A stretch of 64,000 nt of DNA, taken from contig BCIN01000001.1 in assembly GCA_039545335.1 (NCBI GenBank), positions 3,943,347 to 4,007,346 on the forward strand, given 5' to 3'. This DNA is from Kondoa subrosea (taxonomy: Eukaryota). The position numbers were made by a program, and so were the translations under genes. Positions within the stretch are counted from its first letter, which is position 1; each line of letters begins with the position of its first letter. Positions 29,711 to 43,164 of this stretch are shown here, one piece after another. The notes under the pieces are model-generated. The model made no database searches and was not told the DNA's origin. It saw nothing but the letters and a program-made list of their open reading frames with translations.

Positions 29711-30535
29711 CTATGCTTCCTCCTGTTCTTCTTCCCCTTCCCATTTCACTAGTATACTGAAATTATTCCGCTTCACACCGGCAAGCACTTCCTCTTTCCT
29801 CCACGACACACCGTCCCAACCAGCTTGACGAGTTCTTTGTACCAGATAATAGCTGAGCTTGGGACTATCATGCTGAGCAACTATCTTTTCGAAACCACAC
29901 GAAGCCAATATGTCTTTGAACCGATCGTGTGTCAAGTAGCGAGAATTCGTCAAGCATGCTAGAGGTAGAACGATAAAGAGGTAGCCTTCTGGCTTGAGGA
30001 AATCGTGTGCTCGTAAAATCATTTGACCTCGTTTTGAAATATCGCCCTCGAAGTTTAGGACCAGCGAAAGAGAGACAACATCGAAAGGTTTAGAAGGAGG
30101 TTCGAAATCCATGAACTGGCCAATACGAGTCAGAATAGTAAGAGATGTAAGATGTAAGGTACCTACATCTGCTTGTATCACCTTTTCCGATCTGGAATTG
30201 ATGTCAATCGAAACGCAATCCACGAGTGAATGTTCCCATTTAGCATATGCTGTGCCTGCGATCGATCCCACATCCAATATTCGTATCCTCTTTCTGTCTC
30301 TCAGGCTTTTGATTAACCATTTCGAACTTTCACCTCCTTGACTTGTCCCTTGTACAGAAGCGTCCTGATAACTTTTCAATCCTCCTAAAGCTTTTTCTTG
30401 CTCTTTAAGTGCTTTTAGCTTGATGGGATCTTTTTCAGTCTCGATTTGCTTCCGTAGAGCATGGAATTTCGAGATTGTCTTTTGCGATTCTGGTACAGCC
30501 GCCTTCTTTGCTCTATTCTTGCCGCCTCGAGCCAT
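29711..30535 (-). CDS. BMT2: 25S rRNA adenine-N1 methyltransferase (Bmt2 family)
   Basis: LGGLKSYQDAS, GGESSKWL, ILDVGS, IDINS, FDVVSLSLVLNF, RGQM, LFIVLPLACLTNSRY, RNNFSI; one in-frame 51-nt intron at 30116-30166. Confidence 0.9.
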   Translation of the reverse strand: MARGGKNRAKKAAVPESQKTISKFHALRKQIETEKDPIKLKALKEQEKALGGLKSYQDASVQGTSQGGESSKWLIKSLRDRKRIRILDVGSIAGTAYAKWEHSLVDCVSIDINSRSEKVIQADVGTLHLTSLTILTRIGQFMDFEPPSKPFDVVSLSLVLNFEGDISKRGQMILRAHDFLKPEGYLFIVLPLACLTNSRYLTHDRFKDILASCGFEKIVAQHDSPKLSYYLVQRTRQAGWDGVSWRKEEVLAGVKRNNFSILVKWEGEEEQEEA

Positions 30536-36090: not shown

Positions 36091-37338
36091 ATGTCACAGA
36101 ACCTACTGGATGCATCTCTGCCTCACACGGTAGAGCTCTCCTTCTTTGGTGCTTCTACTATCAAGTCAAAACAATCACCTCGCAAGCAAGCTCCAGTCAA
36201 GAGCTCATCGCCCTTGCGTCCAAGAGTTCTGAAACAGCAAGTAGCAGTCGATCAGGATCAGGATAAGTCAAGCCAATATGGCACTATCAAGCTGGAGAAT
36301 CTACAGACAAGTGACTGTTCACTGATTGCAAACGAAGGCTGCTCATTTTTGGCGGATACAACTACTCTGCTCTCTGCTAGCTTGTTTCAGGGAAAAGGTA
36401 GAAGAGTGGTGAGCGTAAAGGAGGATGATTTGATTGAGGAGCTGGATGAGAATACACCAGCTCGAGGGAATCAGAAAGTGTATGAAGGAAAGCCTGCGAA
36501 GCTGTTCAAAGAGTTCGTTCGATGAATCCATTGCTACTTAGAGACTAATTCGGTCTATAGACGTCCTGCACCTTCGGCTATCTCTCGCTCCGGAAGTACA
36601 GCTCGATTACCTCTATCCGCTTATTCTCCTTCGCGCTCTTCGCCCGCTCGCTCTTCTCCAATTCGATCATCTCTTTCTCCTCGTCCGTCAGTGGTTGCCA
36701 AAGTGCCGCTCACAGATTCAGATCAACGCAAAGAACGCTTGCAAAACCTCTTTTCTCAAATGCGATCTCAACCTGCAACTACTTCTCGTCGCACTGTAGC
36801 ACCTACACCTGTCCGTCAGACATCTAATCCAGCTGAAACACGGATTCGAGCATTGTTGGCATCCAAATCTCCTTCGCAGTTGCCAGCACGAGCAAGTAAC
36901 AAACCTCAAACAAGCGCTCAACCTCGATCGATGTTTATGGCTCCTCGAAGTAATACGCATACTGGCTCGTTGGCTGATTTGGCAACTCCTCGAATACCTC
37001 GTTCGGGATTGGCTACTCCATCGTCTCGCTCAATAGTCACACCTCGTGTTCTGCCTTCTTCGCGTTCAATGGCCTTACCTTCTTCTCAATCTATGGCATC
37101 TATTCCTCGTCCATCTATCTCATCTTCAAGATCTATGGCTACTTTAACAGCTCGAGTGCCAATATCGAACTCTCAACCCGCTCAAACACCAGTTGCCAAA
37201 ATGTCAAGCTCGAAATCGATGGCTAATTTGACTCCTCGAGTTCACCAAAAAGATGTCTTTTCTGTGACGAAAGAGAAGAGAATCAGTAGATTGTCGAATG
37301 AGGCTAATGTGGATGTGCCAGTGAGGAGAGTGAGATGA
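36091..37338 (+). CDS. Hypothetical Ser/Pro/Arg-rich, probably disordered protein
   Basis: Consecutive open frames joined by short introns; repeated S-S-R/K/Q-S-M-A motif in last exon; many TP/SP sites. Confidence 0.6.
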
Positions 37339-37615
37339 TTAGTAGTAAATAGTGTAATCCTTTAAGTCATGCTATTCATTTCAGTTCATGCCATTTTGTT
37401 TCCAATCTTGAATGAAAGAACATTCTGCTCCAAGTGTTGCTATGCTACTTCAAGTCCTCGGATGGTACCTTGTACCGGTTGACTACATACCATCTTAACA
37501 ACCGAGAAAATTTCGACAGCTAATTGTAACACAGTATATATTTGTCAATAGACGTTGGTTTCTTCAACATGCTTTACTTCCGGAGGAAGGCTACACGTCG
37601 TAGCAAGTGGAAATC

Positions 37616-37746
37616 GCCTTCATGGCTTAGTGGTAGAGGTTAGTCAACAATGTGTCTGGGCTGGCTTCACAACTAATGCTCAAGTTCTCATCAGCGTCGC
37701 TCTCGTAGCAAAGCGAAGATCACCTGTTCGAACCAGGTTTGAGGCA
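37616..37746 (+). tRNA. tRNA-Thr(CGU) interrupted by a 56-nt GT-AG intron in the D-stem (24/25) and a 3-nt insertion at 37/38
   Basis: A-box TGGCTTAGTGG, B-box GTTCGAACC; acceptor GCCTTCA/TTGAGGC+A73; D-stem GCTT/GAG-C restored by removing 37639-37694; anticodon stem TCGCT/AGCGA with CT-CGT-A; T-stem ACCTG/CAGGT; G1-C72 and C2-G71 Thr identity pairs. Confidence 0.85.
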
Positions 37747-37748
37747 CC

Positions 37749-37759
37749 TTCTTTTTTTT
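37749..37759 (+). terminator. RNA polymerase III terminator (T-run) after the tRNA-Thr gene
   Basis: TTCTTTTTTTT immediately downstream of the discriminator base. Confidence 0.8.
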
Positions 37760-38372
37760 GCTCCAGGCAAGGGACGCATCCCTGCAACTTTGAAAGCCTG
37801 TTTGAACGAGCGAGCGTGTGACTTTCCTTAGAAGCACTCCAGAAAGCGCAACTTCGCCTCGAAGGGTAGATCGCATTGATAACAAGTTTCCGATCCTGTG
37901 TAGTGCTTGGTAAGTAGAAAATGCAAGCAGAACGGTAGAACAAAAGAAACGTGATAGACTGCTCCAGCGTACCCAAGGGAGACTAGACACAGCTTTAAGA
38001 TCTCGAGTATTACGTAAGCGCGTCTTGCTTCGAAATGACGCGATGAGAAGCAGAAGAAATAGGAACATAGAAAGGAAAGGAAAGCACGAGAAGAGAAGAT
38101 CTCGTAAGGCACTGAATATCGAATACCAGAACTCGAAGCTGGTCCGCAAGAATTAGACATGATGAGGAACTGAGTTCTGCCTCCTAGTCCGTGCTGATTT
38201 AGACTGGCGATCACAGGCATGCTAAGTTCCTCAGACGAGAGGTCGAACCACGAGACAAACGCAATGATCCGAGTGCAGATGCTTCGCTGAAATTGCTCAA
38301 GAGGAAGGTCTTTCGCAAACCGTCTTCTTCTTCCACACATCCAATCCTTGCTCTCCATAACCTTTCACAGCC

Positions 38373-40849: not shown

Positions 40850-41981
40850 TCATTGTCGCTGGTTGTATTTCACCAAATCATCGAAAGCTACTTGAGTTCC
40901 TCCAAAGATATCGAGCGCACTGTTAGATAGATCGGTACAGATTTTTGTGAATTAGGAACAACAGCTCACCTGCCATATGTCAAATCTACTTTCCCCTGCG
41001 AAAGTTTGTTGACTAGATCCAGATCCGAAAGATCTGGCAGACTAATCAAGCCCTCGTCTGAGAATTTAGGAGAGACCCGACCTTTCGCTCCTCCTGCATA
41101 GGTTGTTGGAATAGTACACCATTCGCCCAATTCTGAGCAGGCAATTAGTAATAGTCCAATAAGGCTGAACATTCAACGCACTTTGCACAAGTTCTTCATC
41201 TATACCTTGACAAAGACCTTCTACATCTGCTGCATGTACTAGGAATTCACTGAAAACGCAATGAGCAGAAGATAAAGAATAAGGCGATGAAAGCTACCTG
41301 CAATACTGAGCCAGCAGATCGAGCGATTCTAGAATATAGCTAAGTCAGTCTGCAGATAGCTCTGATTAGACAGGAAAGATGACCTTTGTTCACTTGCATA
41401 TCGGTCAACAATTGCCATCGATTCATAGCTACTATCCATTGATCGCCCTTCTTCCGACATCTATGTTCAGTCAGCTGTAGCGAGAGACGTACAGAGAGAA
41501 AGACTAACGAAACATCTACAACCAGACGATCTTTGCCAACCAAAGTCGACAATCTCTTTAATCTGTCCAGATCAAACTTGCCCTCTGGAAACAGGTAAGA
41601 AGTAACTATTATCTTTCCTTCTCACATCAGTACTCTACATCTTCTTCTTCGCCCCGAACTTGGACTGACCTTCTCTGCTCCAGCATCCAACCACTCTTTG
41701 GCATTATCTTCGTTGATTCCACCACCAACCTGCAACCCTCCAGGCCAAGTATTTAAAGCTTCTTTAGCAGCTTCAGTATTCCCTTGTCCAAGTTGTATAA
41801 CATGACCTCCTCTGAGATTATTTGACCGATACAACTGAGCATAATAAGAAGCAGGTTTGTTTGAAGTGAAATTCGTCTTGAGTTCTAAAGTATCTAAAGT
41901 TCCACCAACAATTTGTTTCACTTTTCCTGAATGTAAATCTATACAAGGTCGAAATTGACTTGTCCGTTCTTCTTTTCCCAT
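40850..41981 (-). CDS. HIS6: ProFAR isomerase (HisA), histidine biosynthesis
   Basis: [84 protein letters not shown]. Confidence 0.96.
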
Positions 41982-41996
41982 TTCAACCGCACACCA

Positions 41997-43164
41997 ATGC
42001 AAGCTATCAACGCAAGGCAGACTGTAGCAAGAGGAAGGATATGTTGCTGTGCTGCGAGGATGATGAATGGAAGAAGAGCTGCAAGTAATAGTAGTGCGAA
42101 AGTGAAAGGTGGAAAGAAAGGTGCAGGTCAAATAAATGGGAAGCAGGAGAAAGTTTTGGTCATGCCTTTACAGCAGGCTGCTACAACCCTCAAGGTCGGC
42201 CTTTCAAAGTGTTCGCTGTGTCATGCAGCTTACATTTTTAGAAATGGTCGACAGGCCTTGAATCCTCAATCAACTTCTTGGGCAGCTTATGAACTCACTA
42301 TCAATACCAGACTCAACACATCACAGAATCTAAACGCAGTCAGAGGTCGAATCTTTCCTCCCTTTTCAATTTCTGGTAATCGTTTCAAGGGAGAAAAGAT
42401 CTTAGTTTTCGCTCCTGAGGGTCCTGCTGCTGAAAGCGCTCGTGCAGCTGGTGCAGATTACGTAGGAGGAGAAGATTTAGTAGCTCAAGTGCGTTGCTTG
42501 CGTTCGTAAAATCTGTCCAGGCTTATACGTTTGTGCAATAACGTACAGCTTCTGGATGGAACAATCGAACCTACTCGAGTTATCGCACATCCTTCTATGC
42601 TAGCTATGATAGGACGATCAGGTTTAGCTCCCTTCTTGGGTCCCAAAGGTCTTATGCCTTCGACGAGAAGAGGAACGGTCACTACGGAATTAGCTAATGC
42701 GATACAAGAAGCTAGAGGTGGTTTGGATTGGCGGGCTGATGGTCGAGGAGTGGTCAGGAGTCGTACGTACTTGTCTTGGGCTTAGCTGTATATCAGCTTA
42801 GCCATTGTACTTGGGTACAGGAATTGGTCGAGTAAGCTTGACAACAGTTTCCTTTGCTGAAGCCTAATTCTCATGTTGTGTCTAGTTGCATCTTCCGCCT
42901 GAATCACTTGAAGCCAATATCAGACTATTGGTATCAGAAGTAGCAGATCTAGCAGGTGGATCAGGTGGTCAAGGTGCAGCAGCGATTGCAGCTTCTTCTT
43001 TTTCAGCTACAACTCCTTCCCCCAAGACTGTAAAGAAAGGTCAGCCTTTCAGGGGTCTCTGTAGTATACATTACTGACACCCTTCTGGTTTGATAGGCGC
43101 TGTCACTAGTGTTTTACTCAGTAGTACACAAGGACCTAGTATTCAGCTAGCGGATGTGATATGA
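41997..43164 (+). CDS. MRPL1: Mitochondrial large-subunit ribosomal protein L1
   Basis: Arg-rich presequence; [54 protein letters not shown]. Confidence 0.9.

What the first reader, a model, noticed from the sequence alone, without database searches (positions are those of the whole stretch)
37702..37711. Second, 3-nt insertion at the canonical 37/38 site of the same tRNA
Seen: the anticodon loop is 10 nt (CT-CGT-A-GCA-A) between perfect stem arms TCGCT/AGCGA. Deleting GCA (37708-37710) gives the standard CU-CGU-AA loop. Inference: either an ultra-short SEN-type intron, so that one tRNA needs two different splicing machineries, or a retained expanded loop that would alter decoding, or decay. 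There is also a C6-U67 mismatch in the acceptor stem.
Basis: partly seen in the sequence, partly recalled or inferred. Interest (0 to 1): 0.7.

Follow-up and report, generated by a model that had tools for sequence, protein, structure and literature searches.

The report
Three extra bases in tRNA loop
A fungal threonine tRNA gene that is already split by an mRNA-style intron also carries three extra bases in its anticodon loop; they are real in the DNA, but are more likely an unprocessed small insertion than a record-short intron, and only RNA data or the rest of the genome can settle it.

Summary
On the + strand, 37616-37746 is a tRNA-Thr(CGU)-type gene followed by a T8 run. Its anticodon stem TCGCT/AGCGA encloses a 10-nt loop, CTCGTAGCAA (37702-37711). 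Two Logan assemblies of the probable source sample read the same letters, so it is not an assembly slip.

The "37/38" placement is not unique. Removing AGC (37707-09) or GCA (37708-10) gives the same product. Five of the 8 possible 3-nt deletions give alanine anticodons, but the body has C3-G70, not the alanine G3:U70.

The companion 56-nt D-arm insert (37639-37694) matches this genome's own short spliceosomal introns.

I could not test the 3 nt functionally: no genome is held, no RNA run is listed, and four collection scans found no relatives.

The GCA register formally meets the one conserved rule of eukaryotic tRNA introns, a C32:G pair at -3. It cannot form an anticodon-intron helix and is far shorter than ordinary nuclear tRNA introns.

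My estimates:
- Unprocessed insertion in a crippled or dead gene copy: about 0.55.
- True micro-intron: about 0.17.
- Retained but functional loop: about 0.1.

Interest is moderate. The D-arm intron is the more remarkable feature.

The parts
37616..37638 (+). tRNA 5' part: acceptor 5' arm, U8, G9, D stem 5' arm, D loop and G22-G24. Contains the A-box region (37623-37633).
   Evidence: Conserved T8, A14, G15, G18, G19 and A21 are present.
37639..37694 (+). 56-nt insert between positions 24 and 25 of the D stem (the register can shift by 1-2 nt). It has mRNA-type intron signals: GTTAGT at the 5' end, CTAAT at 37673-37677, and CAG at the 3' end 18 nt after the branch A.
   Evidence: it is one of 70 pattern hits, and window introns peak at 47-61 nt; 3 of 428,564 random 56-mers match the pattern; a homology-backed intron in the His6 gene has the same GTTAGT start; no convincing bulge-helix-bulge.
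37695..37707 (+). C25, G26, anticodon stem 5' arm TCGCT (37697-37701), then C32, T33, anticodon CGT (37704-37706) and A37.
37708..37710 (+). The three extra bases, GCA. The alternative register AGC (37707-37709) gives the same product.
   Evidence: enumeration of deletions; ARAGORN; same letters in two Logan assemblies.
37711..37746 (+). A38, anticodon stem 3' arm AGCGA (37712-37716), 5-nt variable region, T arm with the B-box region (37725-37735), acceptor 3' arm, and discriminator A73.
   Evidence: G53, T54, T55, C56, G57, A58 and C61 are present.
37752..37759 (+). Run of 8 T, six bases after A73: a Pol III terminator-like tract. There is no run of 4 or more T inside the gene.

Best explanation
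The three extra bases are an ordinary small insertion mutation in the anticodon loop of a nuclear tRNA-Thr(CGU) gene copy. No enzyme removes them. Any transcript keeps a 10-nt loop. This copy therefore contributes little or nothing to decoding ACG: it is a crippled or recently dead copy.

Shown: the insertion is real in the DNA, and the tRNA body around it is otherwise intact.

Inferred: the insertion is not processed. The gene is either redundant with another tRNA-Thr(CGU) gene elsewhere in the roughly 19-Mb genome, or it was already disabled. The lesion is recent, because almost nothing else has decayed.

A sub-case I rate as most likely within this explanation: the D-arm mRNA-type intron is older and may be (or was) spliced, and the 3-nt insertion is the later hit.
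For: (1) The gene has three departures from a working tRNA at once: the 56-nt D-arm insert, the 10-nt loop and the C6.T67 mismatch.

(2) The review PMC4090602 (passages) states that short insertions in eukaryotic nuclear tRNA genes mostly occur in one of many synonymous genes and are taken as pseudogenes.

(3) A 3-nt intron cannot form the anticodon-intron helix that stacks on the anticodon stem in TSEN-bound pre-tRNAs (PMC10485636, section 7). At most C32:G and U33:A37 can pair. That fold costs 1.2-2.1 kcal/mol more than the open loop (-17.8 and -16.9 against -19.0).

(4) The extra bases have no unique register and give no unique product. ARAGORN itself excises TCG and calls Ala(AGC). All 8 possible deletions leave a loop with T33 and A37. 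The 'clean 37/38 intron' look is therefore partly a property of this loop sequence.

(5) TSEN contacts the D arm and the acceptor stem (PMC10485636, passages). SEN action on this precursor would therefore need prior removal of the D-arm insert, a second unproven step.
Against: The rest of the gene shows no decay. 20 of 21 stem pairs are standard, and every conserved position that I checked is kept, as are the A- and B-box regions and the T8 terminator. The D-arm insert still has perfect splice signals. Under neutral decay, two insertions with at most one substitution is an unusual mix, so the lesions must be very recent or selection is still acting (inference).

The GCA register satisfies the A-I pairing rule.

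3-nt tRNA introns are removed in the Guillardia theta nucleomorph, by an unknown route (PMC4090602).

Standard finders miss this gene, so the lack of precedent for such genes is partly a detection bias.

I could not check whether another tRNA-Thr(CGU) gene exists, because no genome is held.
Confidence: 0.55

Rival explanations
1. Micro-intron. GCA (37708-37710) is cut out of the pre-tRNA by the tRNA splicing endonuclease (Sen2 at 37/38, Sen34 after the third base), and the halves are joined by the fungal ligase Trl1. This would probably happen after the spliceosome has removed the D-arm intron. One tRNA would then need both splicing systems.
For: Removal gives a textbook CT-CGT-AA loop, and ARAGORN then calls tRNA-Thr(CGT) at default thresholds.

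[quoted passage not shown] With that pair, the 3' site sits in a 3-nt bulge (C, A, then A38) next to the stem.

The tRNA body and the Pol III signals are intact.

Precedent: 3-nt introns in Guillardia theta nucleomorph tRNA genes were shown to be excised by RT-PCR (PMC4090602).
Against: By chance, a G at -3 opposite C32 is expected about 1 time in 4, so the A-I match is weak evidence.

There is no room for an anticodon-intron helix, and the two cut sites would lie only 3 nt apart.

The nucleomorph 3-nt introns are in the T arm of a very reduced genome, not at 37/38 of a free-living fungus. I recall ordinary nuclear tRNA introns as starting at about 11 nt; I did not check this in a paper here.

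The reading requires a second unproven step, spliceosomal splicing of a tRNA precursor. There are no RNA data.
Confidence: 0.17
2. Retained and functional. The 10-nt loop stays in the mature RNA, and the molecule still works. It could act as a poor ACG decoder, as a frame-shifting or otherwise altered decoder, or in a non-translational tRNA-like role.
For: U33, the CGU anticodon and A37 keep their normal order on the 5' side of the loop, and the extra bases lie 3' of A37. The body is intact. tRNAs with enlarged loops can bind the ribosomal A site and decode: SufJ is a tRNA-Thr derivative with an 8-nt loop (PMC4238358, passages).
Against: Known natural suppressors add one base, not three. I found no natural nuclear tRNA with a 10-nt loop in the listing. 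A frame-shifting threonine tRNA would be harmful genome-wide. The 32-38 interaction and the context around position 37 are disrupted (inference).
Confidence: 0.1
3. The locus is no longer a Pol III tRNA gene at all. It is a tRNA-derived fossil lying in a Pol II transcript, either the 3' UTR of the upstream gene (stop codon at 37336-37338) or the 5' UTR of the downstream + strand gene. The 56-nt intron is spliced as part of that transcript, and the 3 nt are plain drift.
For: The tRNA lies 278 nt after the stop codon of the upstream + strand ORF, and upstream of + strand ORFs that begin near 38.2 kb and carry intron-pattern hits. A spliceosomal-type intron is most easily gained and kept in a Pol II transcript (inference).
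Against: The A-box, the B-box and a T8 tract placed 6 nt after A73 are all intact, and 20 of 21 stem pairs are kept. A drifting fossil would not be expected to preserve these. No transcript data exist.
Confidence: 0.1
4. The ancestral gene was an alanine tRNA (loop CT-AGC-AA), and CGT is the inserted triplet.
For: ARAGORN's own solution excises TCG and names Ala(AGC). 5 of the 8 possible deletions give Ala anticodons.
Against: Pair 3:70 is C-G, not the G3:U70 that defines alanine identity (the identity rule is established knowledge, recalled). The GCC acceptor start, the AGATC variable region and A73 fit threonine tRNAs as I recall them. That comparison was not tested against a reference set.
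Confidence: 0.03

Closest known systems
Short insertions in single copies of eukaryotic nuclear tRNA genes, regarded as pseudogenes (Yoshihisa 2014, PMC4090602; passages read)
   Same: A few extra bases in an arm or loop of an otherwise recognisable nuclear tRNA gene, with no evidence of removal.
   Different: The review speaks of the D and T arms. Here the insert is in the anticodon loop, in a gene that also carries an mRNA-type intron and is otherwise undecayed. Whether synonymous copies exist is unknown.
3-nt introns of Guillardia theta nucleomorph tRNA genes (Kawach et al. 2005, as described in PMC4090602; original paper not read)
   Same: Same length. They occur in genes that can hold more than one intron, and their removal has been shown, so a 3-nt tRNA intron is not impossible.
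   Different: They sit in the T arm of tRNA-Cys, tRNA-Val and tRNA-Leu, in a relict red-algal nucleus with many non-canonical introns. Their mechanism is unknown. Here the host is a free-living fungus, the site is the anticodon loop, and there are no RNA data.
Canonical eukaryotic 37/38 tRNA introns cut by the Sen2/Sen34/Sen54/Sen15 endonuclease (PMC10485636 and PMC8479045)
   Same: The position is compatible with 37/38. An A-I pair (C32 with a purine at -3) is possible. The 3' site could lie in a 3-nt bulge.
   Different: No anticodon-intron helix is possible. The length is far below the usual range. The register is ambiguous.
Frameshift-suppressor tRNAs with enlarged anticodon loops, e.g. 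SufJ, a tRNA-Thr with C31.5 (PMC4238358)
   Same: A threonine tRNA with extra loop bases that is still able to read its codon.
   Different: Suppressors carry one extra base (an 8-nt loop) and arise under selection in the laboratory. Here there are three extra bases 3' of position 37.
mRNA-type (spliceosomal) introns in non-coding RNA genes: fungal U6 (Pol III), U1, U2 and U5 snRNA genes and rDNA (PMC5855946, passages)
   Same: This applies to the companion D-arm insert: canonical 5' site, branch site and 3' site inside a small structured RNA gene, in U6 even a Pol III gene.
   Different: I found no report of such an intron in a tRNA gene. This comparison does not concern the 3-nt insert itself.

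Membership tests
SEN-type (tRNA splicing endonuclease) intron | Lies between positions 37 and 38. | tested here: inconclusive
   The GCA register (37708-10) is at 37/38, but AGC (37707-09, at 36/37) gives the same product. 8 of 8 possible deletions leave a plausible loop.
SEN-type (tRNA splicing endonuclease) intron | A-I pair: a pyrimidine at -6 from the 5' site pairs with a purine at -3 from the 3' site (PMC8479045). | tested here: met
   C37702 can pair with G37708. This is expected by chance about 1 time in 4.
SEN-type (tRNA splicing endonuclease) intron | Anticodon-intron helix extending the anticodon stem (bulge-helix-loop or bulge-helix-bulge). | tested here: not met
   Only C32:G and U33:A37 could pair. 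Those folds are 1.2-2.1 kcal/mol worse than the open loop. The MFE of the arm is an open 10-nt loop.
SEN-type (tRNA splicing endonuclease) intron | Absent from the mature tRNA. | not testable with these tools
   No RNA run is listed for this DNA, and the one read-laying run showed DNA contigs only.
tRNA pseudogene | Structural defects incompatible with normal function. | tested here: met
   A 56-nt D-arm insert, a 10-nt anticodon loop and a C6.T67 mismatch. Neither ARAGORN nor Rfam detects the native gene.
tRNA pseudogene | General decay of stems, conserved bases and Pol III signals. | tested here: not met
   20 of 21 pairs are standard. The conserved positions checked, the A/B-box regions and the T8 run are intact.
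tRNA pseudogene | An intact synonymous gene exists elsewhere in the genome. | not testable with these tools
   No genome is held for this window. The window has no other tRNA.
tRNA-Thr (isotype) | Anticodon with G35 and U36, and no alanine G3:U70. | tested here: met
   The CGT anticodon is in the Thr register, and 3:70 is C-G. Isotype-specific models were not available.
Spliceosomal intron (the D-arm insert; context for the 'two machineries' claim) | GT..AG ends, with the 5' hexamer, branch motif, branch-to-3' distance and length typical of this genome. | tested here: met
   GTTAGT..CTAAT..18 nt..CAG, 56 nt. 3 of 428,564 random 56-mers match, and there are 42 hits of 45-65 nt in the window against 11.0 +/- 2.8 in random sequence. 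A His6 intron backed by alignment to 2agk_A has the same hexamer.
Spliceosomal intron (the D-arm insert; context for the 'two machineries' claim) | Shown to be spliced. | not testable with these tools
   No RNA data.

The most novel reading that the evidence does not exclude
This is a working, possibly the only, tRNA-Thr(CGU) gene of a free-living fungus. Its precursor is matured by two unrelated splicing systems in sequence. First the spliceosome removes a 56-nt mRNA-type intron from the D arm. Then the tRNA endonuclease and ligase remove a 3-nt intron at 37/38. That would be the shortest canonical-site nuclear tRNA intron I know of. It would also show that standard tRNA finders hide a class of doubly interrupted tRNA genes.
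Probability: 0.12. Interest if true: 0.85.

Novelty: new member of a known kind. Interest (0 to 1): 0.4.

Why it matters
If the three bases are only a lesion, the finding is a footnote: one more damaged tRNA gene copy.

It matters for two other reasons. First, the gene is invisible to ARAGORN and Rfam. An annotation of this genome may therefore report tRNA-Thr(CGU) as missing or undercounted.

Second, the same gene carries what looks like a genuine mRNA-type intron, a feature that I did not find described for tRNA genes. If the gene is alive, the 3-nt insert would test how short an intron the eukaryotic tRNA endonuclease can handle. It would also test whether the A-I pair alone suffices to define a splice site. 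The question is open even for the nucleomorph 3-nt introns, whose removal mechanism is unknown (PMC4090602).

Tried and rejected
Detection tools
- ARAGORN on the native window: 0 genes (at default with introns allowed).
- ARAGORN at an 80% threshold gave 154 calls in 64 kb, which is noise. One call reads 37616-37748 as Leu(CAG) with a 43-nt intron at 31/32 and a long variable arm. I rejected it: the anticodon stem is mismatched, position 37 is C, the intron site is non-canonical, and it appears only below threshold.
- Rfam: no tRNA match at E up to 10 on 37300-38000, only two chance-level rows (Flavo-1 and U6, 12-14 bits). Nothing at gathering score in the whole window.

Data I could not obtain
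- Whole genome: none is held.
- RNA evidence: no RNA holder is listed.
- Read laying showed only DNA contigs of the probable source sample.

Relatives
- Two metagenome pattern scans found 0 stretches each.
- One genome-contig scan and one viral-contig scan with the 3' half found 0 each.
- Earlier-findings look-ups by place and by sequence returned nothing.

Origin of the D insert
- Introner-type repeat: blastn-short of the 56 nt against the window found only itself, and the repeat finder gave no family covering the locus. This covers the 64-kb window only.
- Bulge-helix-bulge at the D insert: the best register has 3 of 4 central and 3 of 4 outer pairs, with an internal mismatch. I estimate about 7% of random cases would do as well. 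Rejected in favour of the spliceosomal reading.
- Coding intron: no long + strand ORFs flank the insert, and flanking ORFs have no Pfam family.

Intron profile of the window
- A first ORF-bridging intron finder was too noisy: 1,025 candidates.
- An ORF-joining test of pattern hits was mixed. The longest ORF grew in 3 of the 6 regions tested and shrank in 3, so I relied on the His6 alignment instead.
- Pfam on the later His6 exons gave nothing.

Other
- A simple tandem-duplication origin of the 3 nt is not supported by reading the sequence. AGC recurs 5 nt downstream but is not adjacent.
- Literature searches for spliceosomal introns in tRNA genes found none. (Rhodotorula hasegawae and snRNA or rDNA introns) added nothing for tRNA. 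These cover only the held open-access library.
- timed out and one search failed on an N at window position 96. One search is the corrected run.

Full report
WHAT IS THERE

On the + strand, 37616-37746 reads as a tRNA gene in three pieces:
- 37616-37638: acceptor 5' arm, D stem 5' arm, D loop and G22-G24.
- 37639-37694: a 56-nt insert.
- 37695-37746: C25 through the discriminator A73.

A run of eight T follows at 37752-37759, and there is no run of four or more T inside the gene.

The anticodon stem TCGCT (37697-37701) / AGCGA (37712-37716) is perfect. It encloses ten bases, CTCGTAGCAA (37702-37711), instead of seven.

With the insert and three loop bases set aside, 20 of 21 stem pairs are standard; two of these are G.T. 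The exception is C6 (37621) opposite T67 (37740). The conserved bases that I checked are all present: T8, A14, G15, G18, G19, A21, G26, T33, A37, C48, G53, T54, T55, C56, G57, A58 and C61.

IS IT REAL DNA, AND IS IT REALLY A tRNA?

Logan contigs of two runs, at word depth 143 and 54, cover 37400-37900 in one piece each, with no differing letter and no gap. Both runs belong to one sample that may be the source of this window. This rules out an assembler slip but is not independent evidence.

Standard tools do not see the gene:
- ARAGORN: 0 genes in the window (at default settings with introns allowed).
- Rfam: nothing at gathering score.
- Rfam at E up to 10 on 37300-38000: no tRNA match.

I gave ARAGORN four variants:
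- Native sequence: nothing found.
- Only the 3 nt removed: nothing found.
- Only the 56-nt insert removed: a tRNA with a 3-nt "intron".
- Both removed: tRNA-Thr(CGT).

The tRNA frame is therefore not a chance resemblance.

THE PLACE OF THE THREE BASES IS AMBIGUOUS

When ARAGORN resolved the 10-nt loop it excised TCG, not GCA, and named the gene Ala(AGC). I enumerated all eight contiguous 3-nt deletions. All eight leave T33 and A37. Three give anticodon CGT, three give AGC and two give CGC. The loop reads as two triplets in tandem, CGT then AGC.

The body decides for threonine. Pair 3:70 is C-G, not the G3:U70 that marks alanine tRNAs (the pair is; the identity rule is established knowledge). 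I had no isotype-specific models with which to score this formally.

THE COMPANION INSERT

This insert bears on whether the gene is alive. The 56-nt insert starts with GTTAGT, has CTAAT at 37673-77, and ends with CAG 18 nt after the branch A.

The window is rich in short introns of exactly this design:
- A pattern for a 5' hexamer, a branch motif and a 3' YAG finds 70 hits, against 40.6 +/- 5.4 in shuffles. Lengths crowd at 47-61 nt, and 9 of the 70 start with GTTAGT.
- In the 45-65-nt class there are 42 hits, against 11.0 +/- 2.8 in random sequence.
- Only 3 of 428,564 random 56-mers match the pattern from end to end.

One such intron is backed by homology. The His6 exon frame 41340-41621 (- strand) aligns to yeast His6 (2agk_A, E 1.3e-13) with a 16-residue gap. 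That gap corresponds to the 48-nt GTTAGT...TAG pattern hit at 41461-41508.

Other origins for the insert have no support:
- No convincing bulge-helix-bulge can be drawn at its ends.
- No copy of it occurs elsewhere in the window.
- No coding exons flank it.

It is therefore best read as an mRNA-type intron in a tRNA gene. Such introns are known in fungal U6, which is a Pol III gene, in U1, U2 and U5 genes, and in rDNA (PMC5855946, passages). I found none reported for tRNA genes (searches; held library only). An earlier unchecked note of this scan reports one in an algal tRNA-Ala gene (e1-4091646).

WHAT I COULD NOT TEST

- No genome is held, so I cannot say whether another tRNA-Thr(CGU) gene exists, or whether other tRNA genes show small loop inserts.
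- No RNA run is listed.
- Four collection scans for relatives of this tRNA found nothing.

The organism is a fungus with no close relative in the protein collection. A Bmt2-like protein from the window has its best matches at 35-47% identity, among them Pucciniomycotina yeasts, Malassezia and Hyaloraphidium.

WEIGHING THE READINGS

For a micro-intron:
[quoted passage not shown] In the GCA register these are C37702 and G37708, which can pair.
- With that pair, the 3' site would lie in a three-base bulge next to the stem.
- Three-base tRNA introns are removed in the Guillardia theta nucleomorph, by an unknown route (PMC4090602).
- The rest of the gene is undecayed.

Against a micro-intron:
- The A-I match is expected by chance about one time in four.
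- Three bases cannot build the anticodon-intron helix seen stacked on the anticodon stem in TSEN complexes (PMC10485636, section 7).
- The alternative folds cost 1.2-2.1 kcal/mol over the open loop.
- TSEN also grips the D arm and the acceptor stem, so the D-arm intron would have to be removed first. That is itself an unproven step.
- The same review notes that short insertions in nuclear tRNA genes are usually taken as pseudogene marks.

An inference about timing, not a computation: two insertions plus at most one substitution, in a gene whose other roughly 85 constrained positions are intact, do not look like long neutral decay. Either both insertions are very recent, or selection still acts on the gene. 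The most economical mixed scenario is that the mRNA-type intron is tolerated and older, and the 3-nt insertion is a recent hit in a redundant or newly disabled copy.

My estimates for the three bases:
- Unprocessed lesion, including the case of a fossil in a Pol II transcript: about 0.65 in total, of which 0.55 is for the stated best explanation.
- True micro-intron: about 0.17.
- Retained but functional loop: about 0.1.
- Alanine-ancestor or other: the rest.

COMPARISON WITH KNOWN THINGS

The feature behaves most like the short insertions that mark damaged copies of nuclear tRNA genes.

It resembles the nucleomorph 3-nt introns in length only. Place, host and context all differ.

Tested for membership of the SEN-type introns, it gives this result:
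- Passes: the A-I pair.
- Fails: the anticodon-intron helix.
- Inconclusive: the position.
- Untestable here: removal from the mature RNA.

It differs from frameshift-suppressor tRNAs, which add one base to the loop (PMC4238358).

VERDICT

The finding's own interest is moderate (0.4). The interest of the locus comes mainly from the D-arm mRNA-type intron, and from the fact that standard annotation would miss the gene.

Noticed in passing
window 37639-37694 (+): The 56-nt insert in the D arm of the same tRNA has full mRNA-type intron signals (GTTAGT, CTAAT, CAG) and the modal length of this genome's introns. I found no report of a spliceosomal-type intron in a tRNA gene. This is probably the more important feature of the locus.
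   Followed up: partly
window 37702-37711 (+): The 10-nt loop reads as two anticodon triplets in tandem, CGT (Thr) then AGC (Ala). ARAGORN resolves it as Ala(AGC) by excising TCG. An automatic annotation could therefore mislabel the gene.
   Followed up: yes
window 37616-37746 (+): Neither ARAGORN (default, with or without introns) nor Rfam detects this gene. A genome annotation may therefore list tRNA-Thr(CGU) as absent or undercounted.
   Followed up: partly
window 40966-42167 (-): A His6 (ProFAR isomerase) gene is split by several short introns. The intron at 41461-41508 (48 nt, GTTAGT...TAG, in frame and without a stop codon) is visible as a 16-residue gap against yeast His6 (2agk_A).
   Followed up: partly
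window 37324-37419 (-): A weak U6-like Rfam row (12.1 bits against a gathering score of 44, E 5.2), just upstream of the tRNA. It lacks the ACAGAGA box in the alignment, so I take it as chance.
   Followed up: partly
window 96: A single N in the window sequence.
   Followed up: no
window 29714-30526 (-): An intron-less Bmt2-type 25S rRNA adenine-N1 methyltransferase gene. Its best database relatives are only 35-47% identical, so the organism has no close sequenced relative in the protein collection.
   Followed up: partly
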